DNA of 64,000 nucleotides from an uncultured bacterium (lineage in GTDB: Bacteria; Babelota; Babeliae; Babelales; RVW-14). Under the pieces are notes generated by a model. It ran no database searches, was not told the DNA's origin, and worked only from the letters and a program-made list of their open reading frames with translations. Of this stretch, positions 45,625-48,906 are shown in pieces (positions within the stretch are counted from its first letter, which is position 1; every line of letters starts with the position of its first letter). The stretch covers positions 137,479 to 201,478 of the forward strand of contig CAVXAT010000002.1 of assembly GCA_963759805.1 (NCBI GenBank), written 5' to 3'. The position numbers were made by a program, and so were the translations under genes.

Positions 45625-47217
45625 ATGACGATACATAAATGTTTGATTGTTGTAATTGTGCTAAGTATCATCGACATCCTCAATACCCCAATTGCCTCTT
45701 CAATGCAACAGAAGCAATCGACTCAGCAACCAGTGCAACAAGACCCATTGCACCAAATGGTTAATGCCGCGGTAGCAGAAGCGTTGAGCGGCCAAGCAAA
45801 TATATTAAAAGAATTTAATAAGAAAATACATGAATGTATCGATCCTCTAAATGAATCTATACATTTAGCACGTTATGCTAATGGAAGTGCCCTGGATGCT
45901 CTGGAGAAAATAAAAGAAGTATCTGCGCATCTAAGCGAAACAAGAGCAGGTGTAGAGCAAGTCAAAAATTTACCGGCAGACTTGAAAAGGCAGGCTCAAG
46001 CTATTAGTGCAAATCTAGAACGTGATTCTGAACGGATAAGCACTGCACTTTTGAATGTTTTAAAAGTAGGCAGAGGCAACCCAGAAGAAAAAACTAAAAC
46101 AAAACTAGCAGAAATAGCTGAAAAAAAACGACTCGGAATTTATGAGCAAGAAGCATCAATTATGGCTGAGGGAAATGTTAAAGTTGAAAAAGCAAGAGGA
46201 GAATGGGTCCGTGAGATGATAGGAGATCCAAAACTCATGATAAAAATTGCAGTTACAATAGTAGTAATTGCTTTGTGTATCTACATACTCAAGTATGGCT
46301 TACCAGTACTTGTAAATTATTTGACAAGACCACGTGTTATAAGTGAAACGTCAAGACCTGGATTGTTTGAATGGTTTAAACCAAAACAAACCGTTAATAT
46401 TGATGACTTAATTTTTGCACCTTCTCTGCAAAATCAACTTTTTGATCTCTTATTGCGTGTACAAACTGCAAAAAAGTATGATGAATTACTCCCCAATGTT
46501 CTTTTTTACGGAGCTCCAGGAACTGGCAAGACAGCTTTTGTTAAAGCATTGGCTTATGAATCAGGACTTGATTATGCATTAACATCCGGTTCAGAATTTG
46601 CAAAAATTACGGACCTTAACCAGGCTAACAACGAATTACGAAAACTCTTAAAGTGGGCAAAAAGAAGCAAAAATGGATTGATTGTTTTTATTGACGAGGC
46701 TGAATCTCTGTTTGCAAATAGAAAGCTGCAAACCACATCCAAGTCAACGCAAGATTTCATTAATACATTCTTGTCACTTGTTTCAGATCAATCACAAAAA
46801 AAAGTTATGTTTATTTTCGCAACTAATCACCCATTTAAACTTGATGATGCAATTACCAATCGCGTTGGAACAAACATTGAGTTTACTTTGCCAGAAGCAC
46901 CCGAACGAGAAAAAATTCTTTCTACATACCTTGTAAAATCTGCGCAAGAAAACGAAGCTGCAATTGTTGATTTGCATCCGGACGTTATAAAATTGCTTCC
47001 AGCTTATGCAGATGAGCTCAAAGGCTTTTCGCCACGAGCTATTAAATTTGTTGCCGAAGAGATGATTATTAATGCACGACGACAAGAATCTATGCAATTG
47101 ACTAATGACATTGCACAAGCAGTAATGGACCAGGCAAAACATAGCTTGCGACAAGCAGTTCTGTGGGAAACGGAACGAAAAGAATGGAGTGGAGATGCAA
47201 ATGTTATTCATTCATAA
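45625..47217 (+). CDS. ATAD3-like membrane-anchored AAA+ ATPase
   Basis: Strong SD (AAAGGAGGAG). N-terminal hydrophobic segment, about 170-aa coiled-coil region, central TM ([25 protein letters not shown]), then [12 protein letters not shown]..., [30 protein letters not shown] (Walker A), [11 protein letters not shown] (Walker B), [18 protein letters not shown]. Domain order and these motifs parallel eukaryotic ATAD3 (..[10 protein letters not shown].., [22 protein letters not shown].., [10 protein letters not shown]). Confidence 0.75.
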   Translation: [530 protein letters not shown]

Positions 47218-48058
47218 TGACAATCTGCTACAAAGTCTGCTTTTCACAAATTTGAGATATCTGTTTTTTTGCATTGCATGTTTTATTGCTTTGAGTAGTT
47301 ATAGGTCTTTATGGGCACAAAGTTCTAGTGAGAATCATGAATTTAACACTCTTGTGGAAAATATTTATGATCTCCTGCTACAAGGACATTCGGCCGACGA
47401 TATTATAGAAATGCTCGATGATGAACAAGAAAATCCCTACAATGTTCAAAAACTCGTAACATACATTCATGATCAATTGAATGGGAACAAATCAAAGGGA
47501 GCTATTACAAAGGTTATTTCGAGTAATAAAGAATCCGAAAAATATTATTCGCGAAAAAATTTTTTAACAAATGTAAAAATTTGTTATTTTGTTTTGAAAA
47601 TTGTTGCAGTTATTGTCGCTATTATAGTTGTTTGCAATTTATTATCGTCATGGTTTCCCGGAATGTTTGGATTCCTGCCAGGATTACCAAAACCTAAAAA
47701 TCAGAGCAATGCTGATGTTGATAAAAAATCTGATACTAGTGAATCTGGTACTAGTGAATCGAAACATAACGAAGAGACTCCATTGGCTTGCAGCGAGTCA
47801 GAATCTCATGAAAAAAGCTCTCAACCAAGCCTGGAAGTCCTTGGTCCCTGTGTTGAAATGGATTCTTTTGATAGCAAAAAATACGCAGATATTATTGCCC
47901 AGCTTGAGTATGCAAAACGTGAAAATTATATACCCGCGAATGGGGTCTTTGATGTTATTGGAGCAGATAAAGAGCAAGTCGATACTCATTCATTATTTTA
48001 CAAAATGCGATTAACGGAACAGATAGCGTTTGTAAAACGTAATGGCTATATAAAATAA
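47189..48058 (+). CDS. Hypothetical membrane protein, translationally coupled to the AAA+ gene
   Basis: Start codons (47189/47195/47201) overlap the AAA+ stop (47215-47217). Signal-like N-terminus, a central TM (VLKIVAVIVAIIVVCNLL), and a Ser/Glu-rich linker. Confidence 0.45.
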   Translation: MEMQMLFIHNDNLLQSLLFTNLRYLFFCIACFIALSSYRSLWAQSSSENHEFNTLVENIYDLLLQGHSADDIIEMLDDEQENPYNVQKLVTYIHDQLNGNKSKGAITKVISSNKESEKYYSRKNFLTNVKICYFVLKIVAVIVAIIVVCNLLSSWFPGMFGFLPGLPKPKNQSNADVDKKSDTSESGTSESKHNEETPLACSESESHEKSSQPSLEVLGPCVEMDSFDSKKYADIIAQLEYAKRENYIPANGVFDVIGADKEQVDTHSLFYKMRLTEQIAFVKRNGYIK

Positions 48059-48165
48059 GCCTGCAGTTGGCTTTACGATAGGGGGTGCCTAGAGAATTTC
48101 TCTTATATGCAAAGCATTCAATAACAAATATATTTTTAAATTTTAAAACGATTAGGATAGGAATT

Positions 48166-48906
48166 ATGAAGAAATTTATGTTGCAATCAATATTATTTGC
48201 CGGAATGATTGTTTTCAACTTGGTAAACGCAGATAACGACCACATTGAATTTATTGAATTTGCCAGGAACGAAGTATCTATTCCAGAAAGATTAGGAAAT
48301 CTTCAGCTTTATAAGGACAATTATGGATTTCATGTTTTTAAAGACGGTGAAACTTATGACATCCCCAATTATTTTTGTGATCCATTGTTACTAAGAATGT
48401 CCAATGAACAACTAGTGAATTTCTTAGGAAGAAACAAACCCAAGATTATTACTCTAACGCCGGAAGAAGTTAGCCAAATAAATCCAAATAACATGGTTGA
48501 AATAACTGACGCCGAAAAGGACAATCTTCTAAGCCTATTATTTGGTAGTGGATACATTGCAATTAATCAGATGGATGATGGCGAATATATCCTTCGCGCT
48601 AAAATAAGACTTCTGGGGGGAGGTTTTTTTGGATCTATGGCTAAAATTTTCACTGTGGGACTTGCCGTAGATCTTGTCGGCTGTATGATACTAAGCCCTG
48701 TAGGATACTACTTTGTATTGGCACCCATAGAATGTATTGCTGTAACAATTTATCAAATAGCAACTGAAGACGATCCTAAATCCACTGCCGCAAAACAACC
48801 AGAACCTAATCCAGCACCCAATCCAGCACCACAGCCTACAGATCAATATGAATTTGTGTATGAACCTGAACCTATACCCTACATTACTTCTGTTCTTGGT
48901 GAGTAG
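48166..48906 (+). CDS. Hypothetical secreted/membrane protein with Pro-rich C-terminus
   Basis: Preferred start MKKFMLQSILFAGMIVFNLVNA (ATG 48166, in frame with the ORF-track 48085). Two C-terminal TM-like segments, then PEPNPAPNPAPQP. Confidence 0.45.
   Translation: MKKFMLQSILFAGMIVFNLVNADNDHIEFIEFARNEVSIPERLGNLQLYKDNYGFHVFKDGETYDIPNYFCDPLLLRMSNEQLVNFLGRNKPKIITLTPEEVSQINPNNMVEITDAEKDNLLSLLFGSGYIAINQMDDGEYILRAKIRLLGGGFFGSMAKIFTVGLAVDLVGCMILSPVGYYFVLAPIECIAVTIYQIATEDDPKSTAAKQPEPNPAPNPAPQPTDQYEFVYEPEPIPYITSVLGE

What the first reader, a model, noticed from the sequence alone, without database searches (positions are those of the whole stretch)
45625..48906. Bacterial homolog of eukaryotic mitochondrial ATAD3 heading a three-gene membrane operon
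The 530-aa product has the full ATAD3 layout: an N-terminal hydrophobic segment, about 170 aa of coiled coil, one central TM helix, then an AAA module. The junction and AAA motifs track ATAD3 closely. [12 protein letters not shown] compares with [18 protein letters not shown]....[21 protein letters not shown] compares with SPSLEARV....[32 protein letters not shown] compares with [23 protein letters not shown] compares with [30 protein letters not shown] compares with LVLASNQPEQFDWAINDR. To my knowledge ATAD3 is a eukaryotic inner-mitochondrial-membrane protein that bridges the two membranes. In a diderm bacterium the same topology would place the coiled coil in the periplasm and the ATPase in the cytoplasm. 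The gene has a very strong SD. It is translationally coupled (overlapping stop/start at 47189-47217) to two unknown membrane/secreted proteins, which suggests one envelope-spanning machine. Either it was acquired from a protist host or it belongs to an undescribed prokaryotic branch of the family.
Basis: partly seen in the sequence, partly recalled or inferred. Interest (0 to 1): 0.72.

Follow-up and report, generated by a model that had tools for sequence, protein, structure and literature searches.

The report
Bacterial ATAD3-like envelope ATPase module
A parasite-type bacterium (Dependentiae) encodes a membrane ATPase that is a genuine relative of the mitochondrial protein ATAD3, so far described only in eukaryotes; it belongs to a large, undescribed bacterial branch of that family and sits in a conserved gene module with two unknown membrane proteins.

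Summary
ORF 45625-47217 encodes 530 aa: a signal-like N-terminal segment, about 160 aa of long helices, one TM helix, then an intact AAA module.

The relationship to ATAD3 holds from the juxtamembrane segment to the C-terminus:
- BLASTP against human ATAD3A gives 138 bits, colinear.
- On the AAA core alone it scores 107-127 bits (37-41% identity) against eukaryotic ATAD3, versus 53-66 bits against Cdc48/FtsH.
- A eukaryote-only ATAD3 profile scores it at 177 bits, versus 54-60 for the outgroups.

The N-terminal helical region matches ATAD3 in layout only. It has no Pfam ATAD3_N hit, and hhalign finds no similarity for residues 1-199.

The protein is not a recent capture from a protist. It sits in a 44-member clade (82% bootstrap) with no eukaryote inside. 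The sampled eukaryotic ATAD3s are monophyletic (80%). About 55 further clusters with the bacterial-type architecture lie between the two.

Gene 2 (47201-48058) overlaps the ATPase stop codon. A bitopic partner of this type follows in 19 of 22 related loci. Gene 3 (48166-48906) follows in about 10 loci but is not translationally coupled.

The function is inferred: an inner-membrane AAA+ ring with a hypervariable periplasmic helical domain that works with its bitopic partners.

I found no literature on bacterial ATAD3 homologues; only automated JGI labels record the similarity.

The parts
45517..45545 (+). sigma-70-like promoter candidate (TTAACC-17-TATAAT) in the 302-nt intergenic region upstream of the ATPase gene
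   Evidence: 10 of 12 consensus matches. This is a consensus match only; the number of such sites in the region is not above the shuffle expectation.
45612..45621 (+). Shine-Dalgarno AAAGGAGGAG, 3 nt before the ATG
45625..47217 (+). ATAD3-like AAA+ ATPase gene, 530 aa (identical to database protein P0001)
45625..45705 (+). residues 1-27: N-terminal hydrophobic segment (Sec signal peptide or signal anchor; [26 protein letters not shown])
   Evidence: hydropathy; helix 2-19 followed by a disordered linker. The same feature is present in most bacterial relatives and in 0 of 16 eukaryotic ATAD3s. Cleavage was not tested.
45745..46224 (+). residues 41-200: long-helix region, predicted periplasmic; hypervariable between relatives
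   Evidence: helices 41-114, 119-148, 153-169, 172-200; 27% identity to P0002 here versus 96% in the C-terminal part; mean identity 28% versus 65%. No profile similarity to eukaryotic ATAD3_N.
46228..46326 (+). residues 202-234: transmembrane helix with a conserved juxtamembrane segment, homologous to the ATAD3 TM region
   Evidence: hhalign query 190-232 versus human 232-274, E 1e-5; aligned in BLASTP
46327..46494 (+). residues 235-290: ATAD3-type junction ([12 protein letters not shown] ... APSLQNQL ... KKYDELLPN)
   Evidence: P236 and S243 are invariant, and V238, E241 and T242 are at least 90% conserved, in the 38-sequence alignment. The motif (K/Q)P.(L/V)(V/I).ETS is shared with eukaryotic ATAD3 and absent from FtsH/Cdc48.
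46495..46932 (+). residues 291-436: AAA core with Walker A GAPGTGKT (296-303), Walker B VFIDEA (354-359), sensor-1 ATN (399-401) and SRH Arg R413
   Evidence: 107-127 bits against eukaryotic ATAD3 versus 53-66 bits against Cdc48/FtsH. Pore loop 1 is non-canonical (AKITDLN).
46933..47214 (+). residues 437-530: lid and C-terminal helices, with invariant R471 in SPRAI (eukaryotes SGREI; classical AAA SGAD)
47201..48058 (+). gene 2, 285 aa: signal peptide, short conserved periplasmic helical segment, one TM (about residues 120-160), then a variable acidic/Ser-rich tail. It overlaps the ATPase stop codon by 17 nt.
   Evidence: A recognisable homologue lies immediately downstream of the ATPase gene in 17 of 22 loci, and 2 more loci have a divergent protein of the same architecture. 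No Pfam, NCBIfam or PADLOC hit.
48057..48073 (.). short GC-containing hairpin AAGCCTGCAGTTGGCTT, starting within the gene 2 stop codon (48056-48058)
   Evidence: It scores as terminator-like only on the minus strand, and its function is unknown.
48166..48906 (+). gene 3, 246 aa: signal peptide, a conserved periplasmic alpha/beta domain of about 130 aa (LYKD..GFH..YD..FCDP..FLGR.KP..GYI..NQ..GEY.L..RLLGGG), a hydrophobic anchor and a Pro-rich tail
   Evidence: It lies downstream of the module in about 10 loci, sometimes as 2-3 tandem copies. The family has 23 clusters, no Pfam domain, and is only ever labelled Babeliales or hypothetical. The AF2 model is low confidence (pLDDT 48).

Best explanation
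The gene encodes a bacterial member of the ATAD3 lineage of AAA+ ATPases, in a Dependentiae/Babeliales-type genome.

Shown:
- An intact ATPase module whose closest characterised relatives are eukaryotic mitochondrial ATAD3 proteins.
- Homology that runs colinearly from the juxtamembrane segment and TM helix, through a family-specific junction, to the C-terminal helices.
- An N-terminal signal-like segment followed by about 160 aa of long helices.
- A conserved gene pairing with a downstream bitopic membrane protein whose start overlaps the ATPase stop codon, often followed by a second signal-peptide/anchor protein.

Inferred topology: Sec-dependent export puts the helical domain in the periplasm. 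The TM helix anchors the protein in the inner membrane, and the AAA module faces the cytoplasm. This is the topological equivalent of ATAD3, where the intermembrane space corresponds to the periplasm and the matrix to the cytoplasm.

Inferred mechanism: the protein forms a hexameric inner-membrane ring. Cytoplasmic ATP hydrolysis is transmitted through the highly conserved TM/junction to a periplasmic helical bundle. That bundle, together with the co-translated gene 2 protein (and gene 3 where present), forms an envelope-spanning scaffold or tether that organises or remodels the envelope.

Evolution: this is not a recent capture from a host. The protein belongs to a large, sequence-diverse bacterial family that is distinct from the monophyletic eukaryotic ATAD3 clade and at least as diverse.
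For: Identity:
- BLASTP against human ATAD3A: 138 bits, 28% identity over 341 aa, query 192-514 versus 234-571.
- The recalled ATAD3A sequence was validated by a 355-bit PF12037 hit.
- Core-only comparison: 107-127 bits (37-41% identity) against four eukaryotic ATAD3s, versus 53-66 bits (29-30%) against Cdc48 D1/D2 and FtsH.
- A eukaryote-only ATAD3 HMM scores the window protein at 127 bits (core) and 177 bits (TM to end), versus 52-62 bits for the outgroups.
- PDB sequence and fold searches find only generic AAA proteins, at about 50 bits per domain and 20-28% identity.
- Motifs shared with ATAD3 and absent from the outgroups: the ETS junction, DYA..(T/S)G, WA, N.FL and R471.
- hhalign of the juxtamembrane+TM segment: E 1e-5.
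- Relatives P0089, P0119 and P0083 pass Pfam's ATAD3_N gathering score.

Topology: hydropathy and the AF2 model. The N-terminal hydrophobic segment is present in most bacterial relatives and in 0 of 16 eukaryotic ATAD3s. Dependentiae are diderm and use Sec export (PMC6561590).

Module: a gene 2 homologue lies immediately downstream in 17 of 22 loci, with 2 more divergent analogues overlapping the stop codon. Gene 3 follows in about 10 loci.

Evolution:
- The NJ tree places the window protein in a 44-member clade (164/200) with no eukaryote inside.
- The 16 eukaryotic ATAD3s are monophyletic at 159/200, or 176/200 with two metagenomic sequences added.
- All-bacterial monophyly was recovered in 0 of 200 bootstraps.
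- In the exhaustive search, eukaryotic ATAD3s appear only at E about 1e-35, after more than 50 bacterial-type cluster representatives.
- Three divergent bacterial-type members outside the core set (P0196, P0205, P0144) sit on contigs with bacterial housekeeping genes.
Against: - The window protein has no Pfam ATAD3_N hit even at E<=1.
- Its helical region 1-199 shows no profile similarity to eukaryotic ATAD3_N (hhalign E 0.11), so N-terminal homology beyond the TM-proximal 43 residues is unproven.
- Pore loop 1 lacks the aromatic-hydrophobic-Gly motif, so a classical threading mechanism is doubtful.
- Nothing here demonstrates hexamer formation, signal-peptide cleavage, periplasmic location, contact with the outer membrane, or interaction with genes 2 and 3.
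- The covariation test between gene 2 and the N-terminal part of the ATPase was not discriminating (rho 0.34 versus 0.31).
- The tree is neighbour-joining only, and its backbone is unresolved (below 40/200).
- Eukaryotic sampling lacks Amoebozoa, Archaeplastida, Alveolata and Discoba.
- Only three outgroup sequences were available.
- More distant bacterial ATAD3-like genes lack gene 2/3 neighbours, so the module is not a property of the whole family.
Confidence: 0.72

Rival explanations
1. Eukaryote-to-bacterium transfer. A Dependentiae ancestor, being an obligate parasite of protists, captured a host ATAD3 gene. It then added a Sec signal peptide, replaced the N-terminal domain, and expanded the gene into many fast-evolving paralogues.
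For: Dependentiae are intracellular parasites rich in eukaryote-like proteins, and one species remodels host mitochondria (PMC6561590). Nearly all named bacterial hits are Dependentiae/TM6/Babeliales. The only exceptions are one Oligoflexales-labelled and one Parachlamydiales-labelled short contig. The named distribution is therefore narrow and host-associated, as expected for a captured gene. Fast evolution in these parasites could inflate the apparent bacterial diversity.
Against: - No eukaryote falls inside or next to the window's clade.
- The sampled eukaryotes (Metazoa, Stramenopiles, Ancyromonadida) are monophyletic at 159-176/200, which excludes a post-LECA donor among the sampled groups.
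- Every eukaryotic hit scores about 135-140 bits, below more than 50 bacterial-type cluster representatives.
- Bacterial monophyly was recovered in 0 of 200 bootstraps.
Confidence: 0.3
2. Membrane-protein remodelling or translocation ATPase. The ring acts on its co-encoded bitopic partners (genes 2 and 3) as substrates, by inserting, extracting or assembling them in the way Bcs1 or Msp1/ATAD1 do. It would not be a static trans-envelope tether.
For: There is tight gene linkage, including a start/stop overlap, with a protein that has one TM and a variable cytoplasmic tail. Gene 3 occurs in tandem multi-copy arrays, which is compatible with client proteins. The catalytic motifs are intact.
Against: Pore loop 1 lacks the aromatic residue used for substrate threading. 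Partners and ATPase appear in 1:1 gene arrangements in most loci, which suits a complex better than an enzyme-substrate pair. There is no direct evidence either way.
Confidence: 0.25
3. Host-directed ATAD3 mimic. The protein is exported, for example in outer-membrane vesicles, and inserts into host mitochondrial membranes to remodel the organelle.
For: Chromulinavorax reorganises and expands the host mitochondrion and sheds outer-membrane vesicles (PMC6561590). The N-terminal domain is hypervariable and there are many paralogues, a pattern typical of host-interaction proteins.
Against: A signal peptide followed by a strongly hydrophobic stop-transfer helix predicts retention in the bacterial inner membrane, with the ATPase in the bacterial cytoplasm. 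The most conserved parts are the TM/junction and the ATPase, not the exposed domain. The co-encoded partners are also membrane-anchored.
Confidence: 0.05
4. Generic bacterial AAA protein (FtsH-like, CbbX-like, or a defence ATPase such as IetA) whose resemblance to ATAD3 is only the shared AAA fold.
For: Pfam and NCBIfam report only generic AAA hits for the window protein. PADLOC gives IetA at 67 bits. PDB fold hits are FtsH and p97.
Against: ATAD3 scores about twice as high as any outgroup on the identical core region. Homology also extends through the TM, the junction and the C-terminal helices. There is no protease domain. Genes 2 and 3 have no PADLOC hits, and no viral relatives were found.
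Confidence: 0.03

Closest known systems
Eukaryotic ATAD3 (ATAD3A/B; Pfam PF12037 ATAD3_N + PF00004), a mitochondrial inner-membrane AAA+ ATPase
   Same: - A single central TM helix with a conserved juxtamembrane segment.
- The (K/Q)P.(L/V)(V/I).ETS junction.
- An AAA core at 37-41% identity.
- Shared derived motifs: DYA..(T/S)G, WA, N.FL, a single SRH Arg, and an Arg in S(G/P)R(E/A)I.
- Colinear C-terminal helices.
- A long helical region N-terminal to the TM.
- An equivalent predicted topology, with the helical domain in the inter-membrane compartment and the ATPase in the matrix or cytoplasm.
   Different: - It is bacterial.
- It has an N-terminal Sec-type signal segment, which is absent from 16 of 16 eukaryotic ATAD3s.
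- Its helical region is not detectably homologous to ATAD3_N and is hypervariable.
- It has a 3-4 residue insertion in the pore-loop-1 region.
- It is encoded in a module with two bacterial-only membrane proteins.
- It is multi-copy within genomes.
FtsH / i-AAA and m-AAA proteases (classical-clade membrane AAA)
   Same: It is membrane-anchored, with a cytoplasm-facing classical-clade AAA module. These are the closest solved folds.
   Different: It has no M41 protease domain. The sequence score is only 43-61 bits. FtsH lacks the ATAD3 junction and C-terminal motifs, and has a compact periplasmic domain between two TM helices rather than a long helical region preceded by a signal peptide.
Bcs1 and Msp1/ATAD1 (single-TM AAA proteins that move or extract membrane proteins)
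   Same: A single-pass membrane AAA protein acting at a membrane, which is a possible functional analogy for acting on the bitopic partners.
   Different: No specific sequence affinity was seen. They do not appear among the top PDB sequence hits, and their N-terminal TM is not preceded by an exported helical domain. This comparison draws on general knowledge and was not tested phylogenetically here.
TolA/TonB-type envelope-spanning energy transducers
   Same: The concept of an inner-membrane-anchored protein with an extended periplasmic domain that reaches towards the outer membrane, coupled to a cytoplasmic-side energy source.
   Different: They are unrelated in sequence and are energised by proton-motive-force motors (ExbBD/TolQR), not by an AAA ring. 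The only hits are weak, low-complexity Pro-rich matches of gene 3 to TonB (far below cut-off).

Membership tests
ATAD3 family (AAA+ subfamily) | An AAA module specifically closer to ATAD3 than to other AAA subfamilies | tested here: met
   Core region 291-436: 107-127 bits (37-41% identity) against four eukaryotic ATAD3s, versus 53-66 bits against Cdc48 D1/D2 and FtsH. A eukaryote-only HMM gives 127 and 177 bits versus 52-62. The best PDB score is about 50 bits per domain. The ATAD3-like versus outgroup split is 200/200. Limitation: only three outgroup sequences, and an NJ tree.
ATAD3 family (AAA+ subfamily) | A central TM helix plus a conserved post-TM junction ([10 protein letters not shown]-type) colinear with the AAA domain | tested here: met
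   The BLASTP alignment runs through the TM and the junction. hhalign of the juxtamembrane+TM segment gives E 1e-5. In the junction, P236 and S243 are invariant and V238, E241 and T242 are at least 90% conserved, and the junction is shared with the eukaryotic consensus.
ATAD3 family (AAA+ subfamily) | The N-terminal ATAD3_N domain (Pfam PF12037; coiled coils CC1/CC2) | tested here: inconclusive
   The window protein has no PF12037 hit at E<=1. hhalign of residues 1-199 against the eukaryotic N-terminal region gives E 0.11, probability 0.5%. Relatives at 45-57% identity do pass the gathering score of 25 bits: P0089 at 45.3, P0119 at 39.6 and P0083 at 30.7. Those hits include the TM-proximal part and Q/E/R/A-rich helices, so composition may contribute.
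ATAD3 family (AAA+ subfamily) | Catalytic competence (Walker A, Walker B, sensor 1, Arg finger) | tested here: met
   GAPGTGKT 296-303, VFIDEA 354-359, ATN 399-401 and R413 are all invariant or nearly invariant in the family. These are sequence motifs only; activity was not measured.
ATAD3 family (AAA+ subfamily) | Two-membrane-bridging topology (ATPase inside, N-terminal domain in or through the inter-membrane compartment) | not testable with these tools
   It is predicted from the signal-like segment, the TM helix and the diderm envelope of Dependentiae (PMC6561590). No signal-peptide or topology predictor, and no experiment, was available.
ATAD3 family (AAA+ subfamily) | Mitochondrial inner-membrane localisation in a eukaryote | tested here: not met
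   The gene lies in a bacterial genome, flanked by TLC translocases, peptidoglycan hydrolases, GlmU-like, SbcD and other bacterial genes. Its relatives are on Dependentiae/TM6 MAG contigs. It is therefore a homologue of ATAD3, not an orthologue in the cell-biological sense.
FtsH family | A C-terminal M41 zinc-protease domain and an FtsH-level score (NCBIfam TIGR01241 cut-off 600) | tested here: not met
   TIGR01241 scores 57 bits against a cut-off of 600. There is no peptidase domain in Pfam. A genuine FtsH (L024) scores only 43 bits against the query.
Known anti-phage defence systems (PADLOC) | Matches of the ATPase and of the partner genes to a defined system | tested here: not met
   The best hit is IetA at 67 bits, which is generic AAA similarity. 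Genes 2 and 3 and three flanking genes have no hits.

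The most novel reading that the evidence does not exclude
ATAD3 is not a eukaryotic invention. It descends from, or shares a pre-LECA ancestor with, a bacterial envelope-spanning AAA+ family. ATAD3's puzzling membrane-bridging topology would then be a direct inheritance from a diderm bacterial envelope machine. Dependentiae would still carry the ancestral-type system, complete with bacterial partner proteins, offering a tractable prokaryotic model for the unknown molecular mechanism of ATAD3.
Probability: 0.3. Interest if true: 0.85.

Novelty: new variant of a known kind. Interest (0 to 1): 0.66.

Why it matters
ATAD3 is essential in animals, plants and apicomplexans, and it is mutated in human neurological disease. 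Its molecular mechanism and its evolutionary origin are both unresolved. The literature I could search treats it as exclusively eukaryotic (PMC13249166 has no mention of bacteria; searches found nothing on prokaryotic homologues).

A large bacterial branch with the same TM-junction-ATPase design and an equivalent predicted topology does three things:
- It makes the question of ATAD3's origin directly testable by phylogenetics.
- It offers simpler systems, with defined operon partners, for structural and biochemical work.
- It points to a previously unrecognised envelope machine in Dependentiae. These are obligate parasites that lack lipid synthesis and live pressed against host mitochondria (PMC6561590).

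The gene-linked partners (genes 2 and 3) are concrete candidates for interaction studies that have no counterpart in the eukaryotic field.

Tried and rejected
- The look-up of encoding contigs on P0001 and P0002 found no record. I used the search for related loci instead.
- The afdb50 fold library was unavailable, so there was no structural comparison with ATAD3 AlphaFold models. The PDB holds no ATAD3.
- The gene 3 structure prediction gave pLDDT 48. I judged it unusable and ran no fold search on it.
- The covariation test asked whether gene 2 divergence tracks the N-terminal or the C-terminal part of the ATPase. The result was rho 0.34 versus 0.31, which is not discriminating.
- Raw identity over the tree columns looked similar for ATAD3 and the outgroups, at 31% versus 29%. 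That prompted the region-matched BLAST and HMM test, which did separate them.
- The defence-system hypothesis was rejected.
- A viral vector or viral homologue was rejected, since only generic AAA matches were found.
- Three of the literature searches were too broad and returned irrelevant papers. The ATAD3 evolution review I recalled (doi 10.1093/pcp/pcad122) is not held.

Full report
OBSERVATION.

The ORF at 45625-47217 (+) encodes 530 aa exactly as described.
- It is preceded by AAAGGAGGAG (45612-45621), 3 nt before the ATG.
- A TTAACC-17-TATAAT promoter-like site lies at 45517-45545.
- Hydropathy finds two hydrophobic segments, residues 1-27 and 198-233.
- An AlphaFold2 model built on a 38-sequence family alignment (mean pLDDT 80, with the ATPase above 90) gives: helix 2-19, a disordered linker 20-40, long helices 41-114/119-148/153-169/172-200, a TM helix 202-234, and a canonical AAA fold with C-terminal helices.
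- Walker A (GAPGTGKT), Walker B (VFIDEA), sensor 1 (ATN) and the SRH arginine (R413) are intact and invariant or nearly so in the family.

IS IT ATAD3-LIKE?

Pfam and NCBIfam see only a generic AAA domain in the window protein. PF12037 (ATAD3_N) is not hit even at E<=1. PDB sequence hits are p97/Cdc48 at about 50 bits per domain.

It was validated as a true ATAD3 by a 355-bit PF12037 hit. BLASTP against the window protein gives 138 bits and 28% identity over 341 aa. The alignment is colinear from before the TM helix (query 192 / human 234) to the C-terminus.

Identity over shared alignment columns looked deceptively similar for ATAD3 and the outgroups, so I repeated the comparison region by region.

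| Comparison | vs eukaryotic ATAD3 | vs Cdc48 D1/D2 and FtsH |
|---|---|---|
| AAA core, residues 291-436 (BLASTP) | 107-127 bits, 37-41% identity (Fabomonas, Hydra, Lagenidium, human) | 53-66 bits, 29-30% identity |
| Eukaryote-only ATAD3 HMM, core | 127 bits | 52-62 bits |
| Eukaryote-only ATAD3 HMM, TM to end | 177 bits | 54-60 bits |

The reciprocal HMM, built from the bacterial clade, scores human ATAD3A at 122 bits (core) and 188 bits (TM to end).

Group consensus sequences show derived motifs shared by the bacterial and eukaryotic proteins and absent from the outgroups:
- the (K/Q)P.(L/V)(V/I).ETS junction
- DYA..(T/S)G
- a conserved W-A
- N.FL
- an arginine in S(G/P)R(E/A)I, where classical AAA proteins have SGAD.

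Pore loop 1 is non-canonical in both groups.

THE N-TERMINAL REGION.

Profile-profile comparison of the bacterial clade with the eukaryotic N-terminal regions detects only the 43 residues that span the juxtamembrane segment and TM helix (query 190-232 versus human 232-274, E 1e-5). With the TM removed there is no similarity (E 0.11).

Three relatives (P0089, P0119, P0083; 45-57% identical to the query) do pass Pfam's ATAD3_N threshold. Those matches include the TM-proximal part and compositionally similar helices.

The honest statement is therefore: homologous from the juxtamembrane segment onward, and analogous in layout N-terminal to that.

WHO ELSE HAS IT?

The word-indexed search found 1,974 hits. 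The top 120 are all bacterial-type proteins with the same layout. Where named, they are Babeliales, Dependentiae or TM6, apart from one short 'Parachlamydiales' contig. JGI's pipeline already labels several of them 'ATAD3A/B'.

A scan of one genome per GTDB species returned 23 true loci. All are in Dependentiae-type MAGs (some titled 'uncultured Pseudomonadota'), and several genomes hold 2-3 copies.

The exhaustive HMMER search of 1.84 billion representatives gave 223 proteins below 1e-30.
- After the window's own clade come about 55 further single-AAA clusters that align from query residue ~150-200, before the TM, to ~505.
- Interspersed are giant multi-AAA proteins, which I did not examine.
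- Identifiable eukaryotic ATAD3s appear only at about 1e-35, for example Fabomonas.

Three divergent bacterial-type members outside the core set lie on contigs with unmistakably bacterial neighbours:
- P0196 with S1, NDK, NusB and EF-P.
- P0144 with RuvA/C, RF-1, TilS, TonB and DnaJ.
- P0205 from the same sample as a Dependentiae MAG.

PHYLOGENY.

I retrieved verified eukaryotic ATAD3s using the Fabomonas protein as query. They come from oomycetes, diatoms, cnidarians, echinoderms, molluscs, arthropods and vertebrates. I then built a neighbour-joining tree:
- 265 columns, query residues 236-505
- Kimura distances, 200 bootstraps
- outgroups FtsH from L024 and Cdc48 D1/D2.

Results:

| Grouping | Bootstrap support |
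|---|---|
| ATAD3-like sequences versus outgroups | 200/200 |
| 16 eukaryotic ATAD3s monophyletic | 159/200 |
| Same, with two signal-less metagenomic sequences added | 176/200 |
| Window protein's 44-member clade, no eukaryote inside | 164/200 |
| All bacterial-type sequences as a single group | 0/200 |

The backbone linking these groups is unresolved (below 40/200).

Most bacterial-type sequences have the N-terminal hydrophobic segment (those lacking it are mostly N-terminally truncated), and 0 of the 16 eukaryotic ones have it.

This excludes a recent capture from any sampled eukaryotic lineage. It shows a large bacterial radiation at least as diverse as all sampled eukaryotic ATAD3.

The direction of the deep relationship remains open, for three reasons:
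- NJ was the only tree method available.
- There are only three outgroup sequences.
- Amoebozoa, plants, alveolates and excavates are not sampled.

THE GENE MODULE.

Gene 2 most likely starts at ATG 47201.
- GGAG motifs lie at 47186-47194.
- The 17-nt overlap with the ATPase stop codon is the same overlap seen in L001-L003.
- Iterated profile searches over all ORFs of the fetched loci find a gene 2 homologue immediately downstream of the ATPase gene in 17 of the 22 loci that have downstream sequence.
- In two more loci (L020, L023), an ORF overlapping the stop codon has the same signal-peptide-plus-one-TM architecture but is too divergent for the profile.

Gene 3 most likely starts at ATG 48166. 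That is 107 nt after the gene 2 stop and beyond a small hairpin, so it is not translationally coupled.
- It follows the pair in about 10 loci, sometimes as 2-3 tandem copies.
- It has a strongly conserved periplasmic domain of about 130 aa. The family has only 23 clusters, all unannotated.
- Its AF2 model was too poor to use (pLDDT 48).

Neither partner hits Pfam, NCBIfam or PADLOC. More distant bacterial ATAD3-like genes lack these neighbours, so the module characterises the window's subclade.

A STRIKING SIDE OBSERVATION.

Relatives are mosaic:

| Relative | Identity, junction to C-terminus | Identity, N-terminal part |
|---|---|---|
| P0002 | 96% | 27% |
| P0005 | 86% | 29% |
| P0011 | 86% | 25% |

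Across 11 loci, mean identity is 65% for the C-terminal part, 28% for the N-terminal part and 31% for gene 2. The exported domain and its putative partner evolve, or are exchanged, far faster than the motor. A simple covariation test could not show that gene 2 tracks the N-terminal part specifically.

MECHANISM (INFERRED).

The genomic context fits an energy-parasitic Dependentiae: two tandem ATP/ADP translocases, peptidoglycan hydrolases and toxin-like glycosyltransferases. Cultured Dependentiae are diderm, export proteins through Sec, carry signal peptides on 44% of CDS, and lack lipid synthesis (PMC6561590).

A signal segment followed by a stop-transfer helix would place residues ~28-200 in the periplasm and the ATPase in the cytoplasm. 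This is the topological equivalent of ATAD3.

I propose an inner-membrane hexameric ring. Its ATP cycle would be relayed through the very conserved TM/junction to a periplasmic helical assembly. That assembly would be built with the co-translated gene 2 protein (and gene 3), giving an envelope-spanning scaffold or tether.

The main functional rival is a Bcs1/Msp1-like remodeller acting on the partner proteins. A host-directed ATAD3 mimic is unlikely given the membrane anchoring. A generic AAA or defence ATPase is rejected. No viral relatives exist in IMG/VR beyond generic AAA matches.

NOVELTY.

Full-text searches found no paper linking ATAD3 to Dependentiae or describing prokaryotic homologues. 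A 2026 paper on Plasmodium ATAD3 discusses only eukaryotic distribution and never mentions bacteria. The similarity is recorded only in automated JGI labels.

I classify this as a new variant of a known kind: a bacterial, Sec-exported, operon-embedded branch of the ATAD3 lineage. It has a moderate chance (about 0.3) of bearing on the origin of ATAD3 itself.

Noticed in passing
window 45625-46224 compared with P0002, P0005, P0011 (L002, L003): The proteins are mosaic. P0002 is 96% identical to the window ATPase from the junction to the C-terminus but only 27% identical in the N-terminal exported part. P0005 is 86/29 and P0011 is 86/25. This suggests domain swapping, gene conversion of the motor, or diversifying selection on the periplasmic domain.
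   Followed up: partly
L015 3773-9140; L014 10435-13320; L019 5393-6939; L001/L004 on one 21-kb contig: Local amplification: three tandem ATAD3-like paralogues in L015, three tandem gene 3 copies in L014 and two in L019, and two complete modules on a single 21-kb contig.
   Followed up: partly
window 56149-57504 (-) and 57497-58837 (-): Two tandem TLC-family ATP/ADP translocase genes, the hallmark of an energy-parasitic intracellular bacterium.
   Followed up: no
window 40902-42254 (-), 42208-43593 (-), 43728-44675 (+): Two tandem DXD glycosyltransferases, one of them (40902-42254) with a TcdA/TcdB-catalytic-domain-like hit, lie next to an FkbM-type methyltransferase that carries a signal-like N-terminus. 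They are possible host-directed or envelope glycosylation enzymes.
   Followed up: no
window 49006-49980 (-) and 50067-50795 (-); L006 6427-7341; L004 7110-7685; L016 7164-7718: Two further unannotated signal-peptide/TM proteins next to the module have homologues beside the module in other genomes. The 242-aa protein sits divergently upstream of the ATPase gene in L004 and L016. They may be additional, looser members of the neighbourhood.
   Followed up: partly
window 44813-45322 (-): A 169-aa ORF with a signal-like N-terminus and a C-terminal heptad-like Q/L-rich segment lies divergently upstream of the ATPase gene. No homologue was found in any fetched locus, and there is no family hit.
   Followed up: partly
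window 59314-60837 (-) and 34292-35812 (+): An ATP-synthase alpha/beta-type protein with a V/A-type C-terminal domain is present in addition to an F-type alpha subunit. I did not determine whether it is a V/A-ATPase subunit or a secretion or flagellar-type ATPase.
   Followed up: no
one search hits P0125, P0129, P0131, P0133, P0137, P0138 (1,500-2,350 aa): Giant proteins with 3-6 AAA stretches rank among the best hits to the query, at about 50 bits per stretch. Their origin and their relation to the ATAD3-like family are unknown.
   Followed up: no
L002, L003, L006, L007, L011, L015-L017, L019, L023 (record titles): Many MAGs titled 'uncultured Pseudomonadota bacterium' carry Babeliales-type ATAD3-like modules. 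This is probably a taxonomic mislabel in the deposited records.
   Followed up: no
L030 1722-8000: About 6 kb upstream of the ATAD3-like gene P0144 has no called genes and few long ORFs. It may be an rRNA operon or other non-coding region.
   Followed up: no
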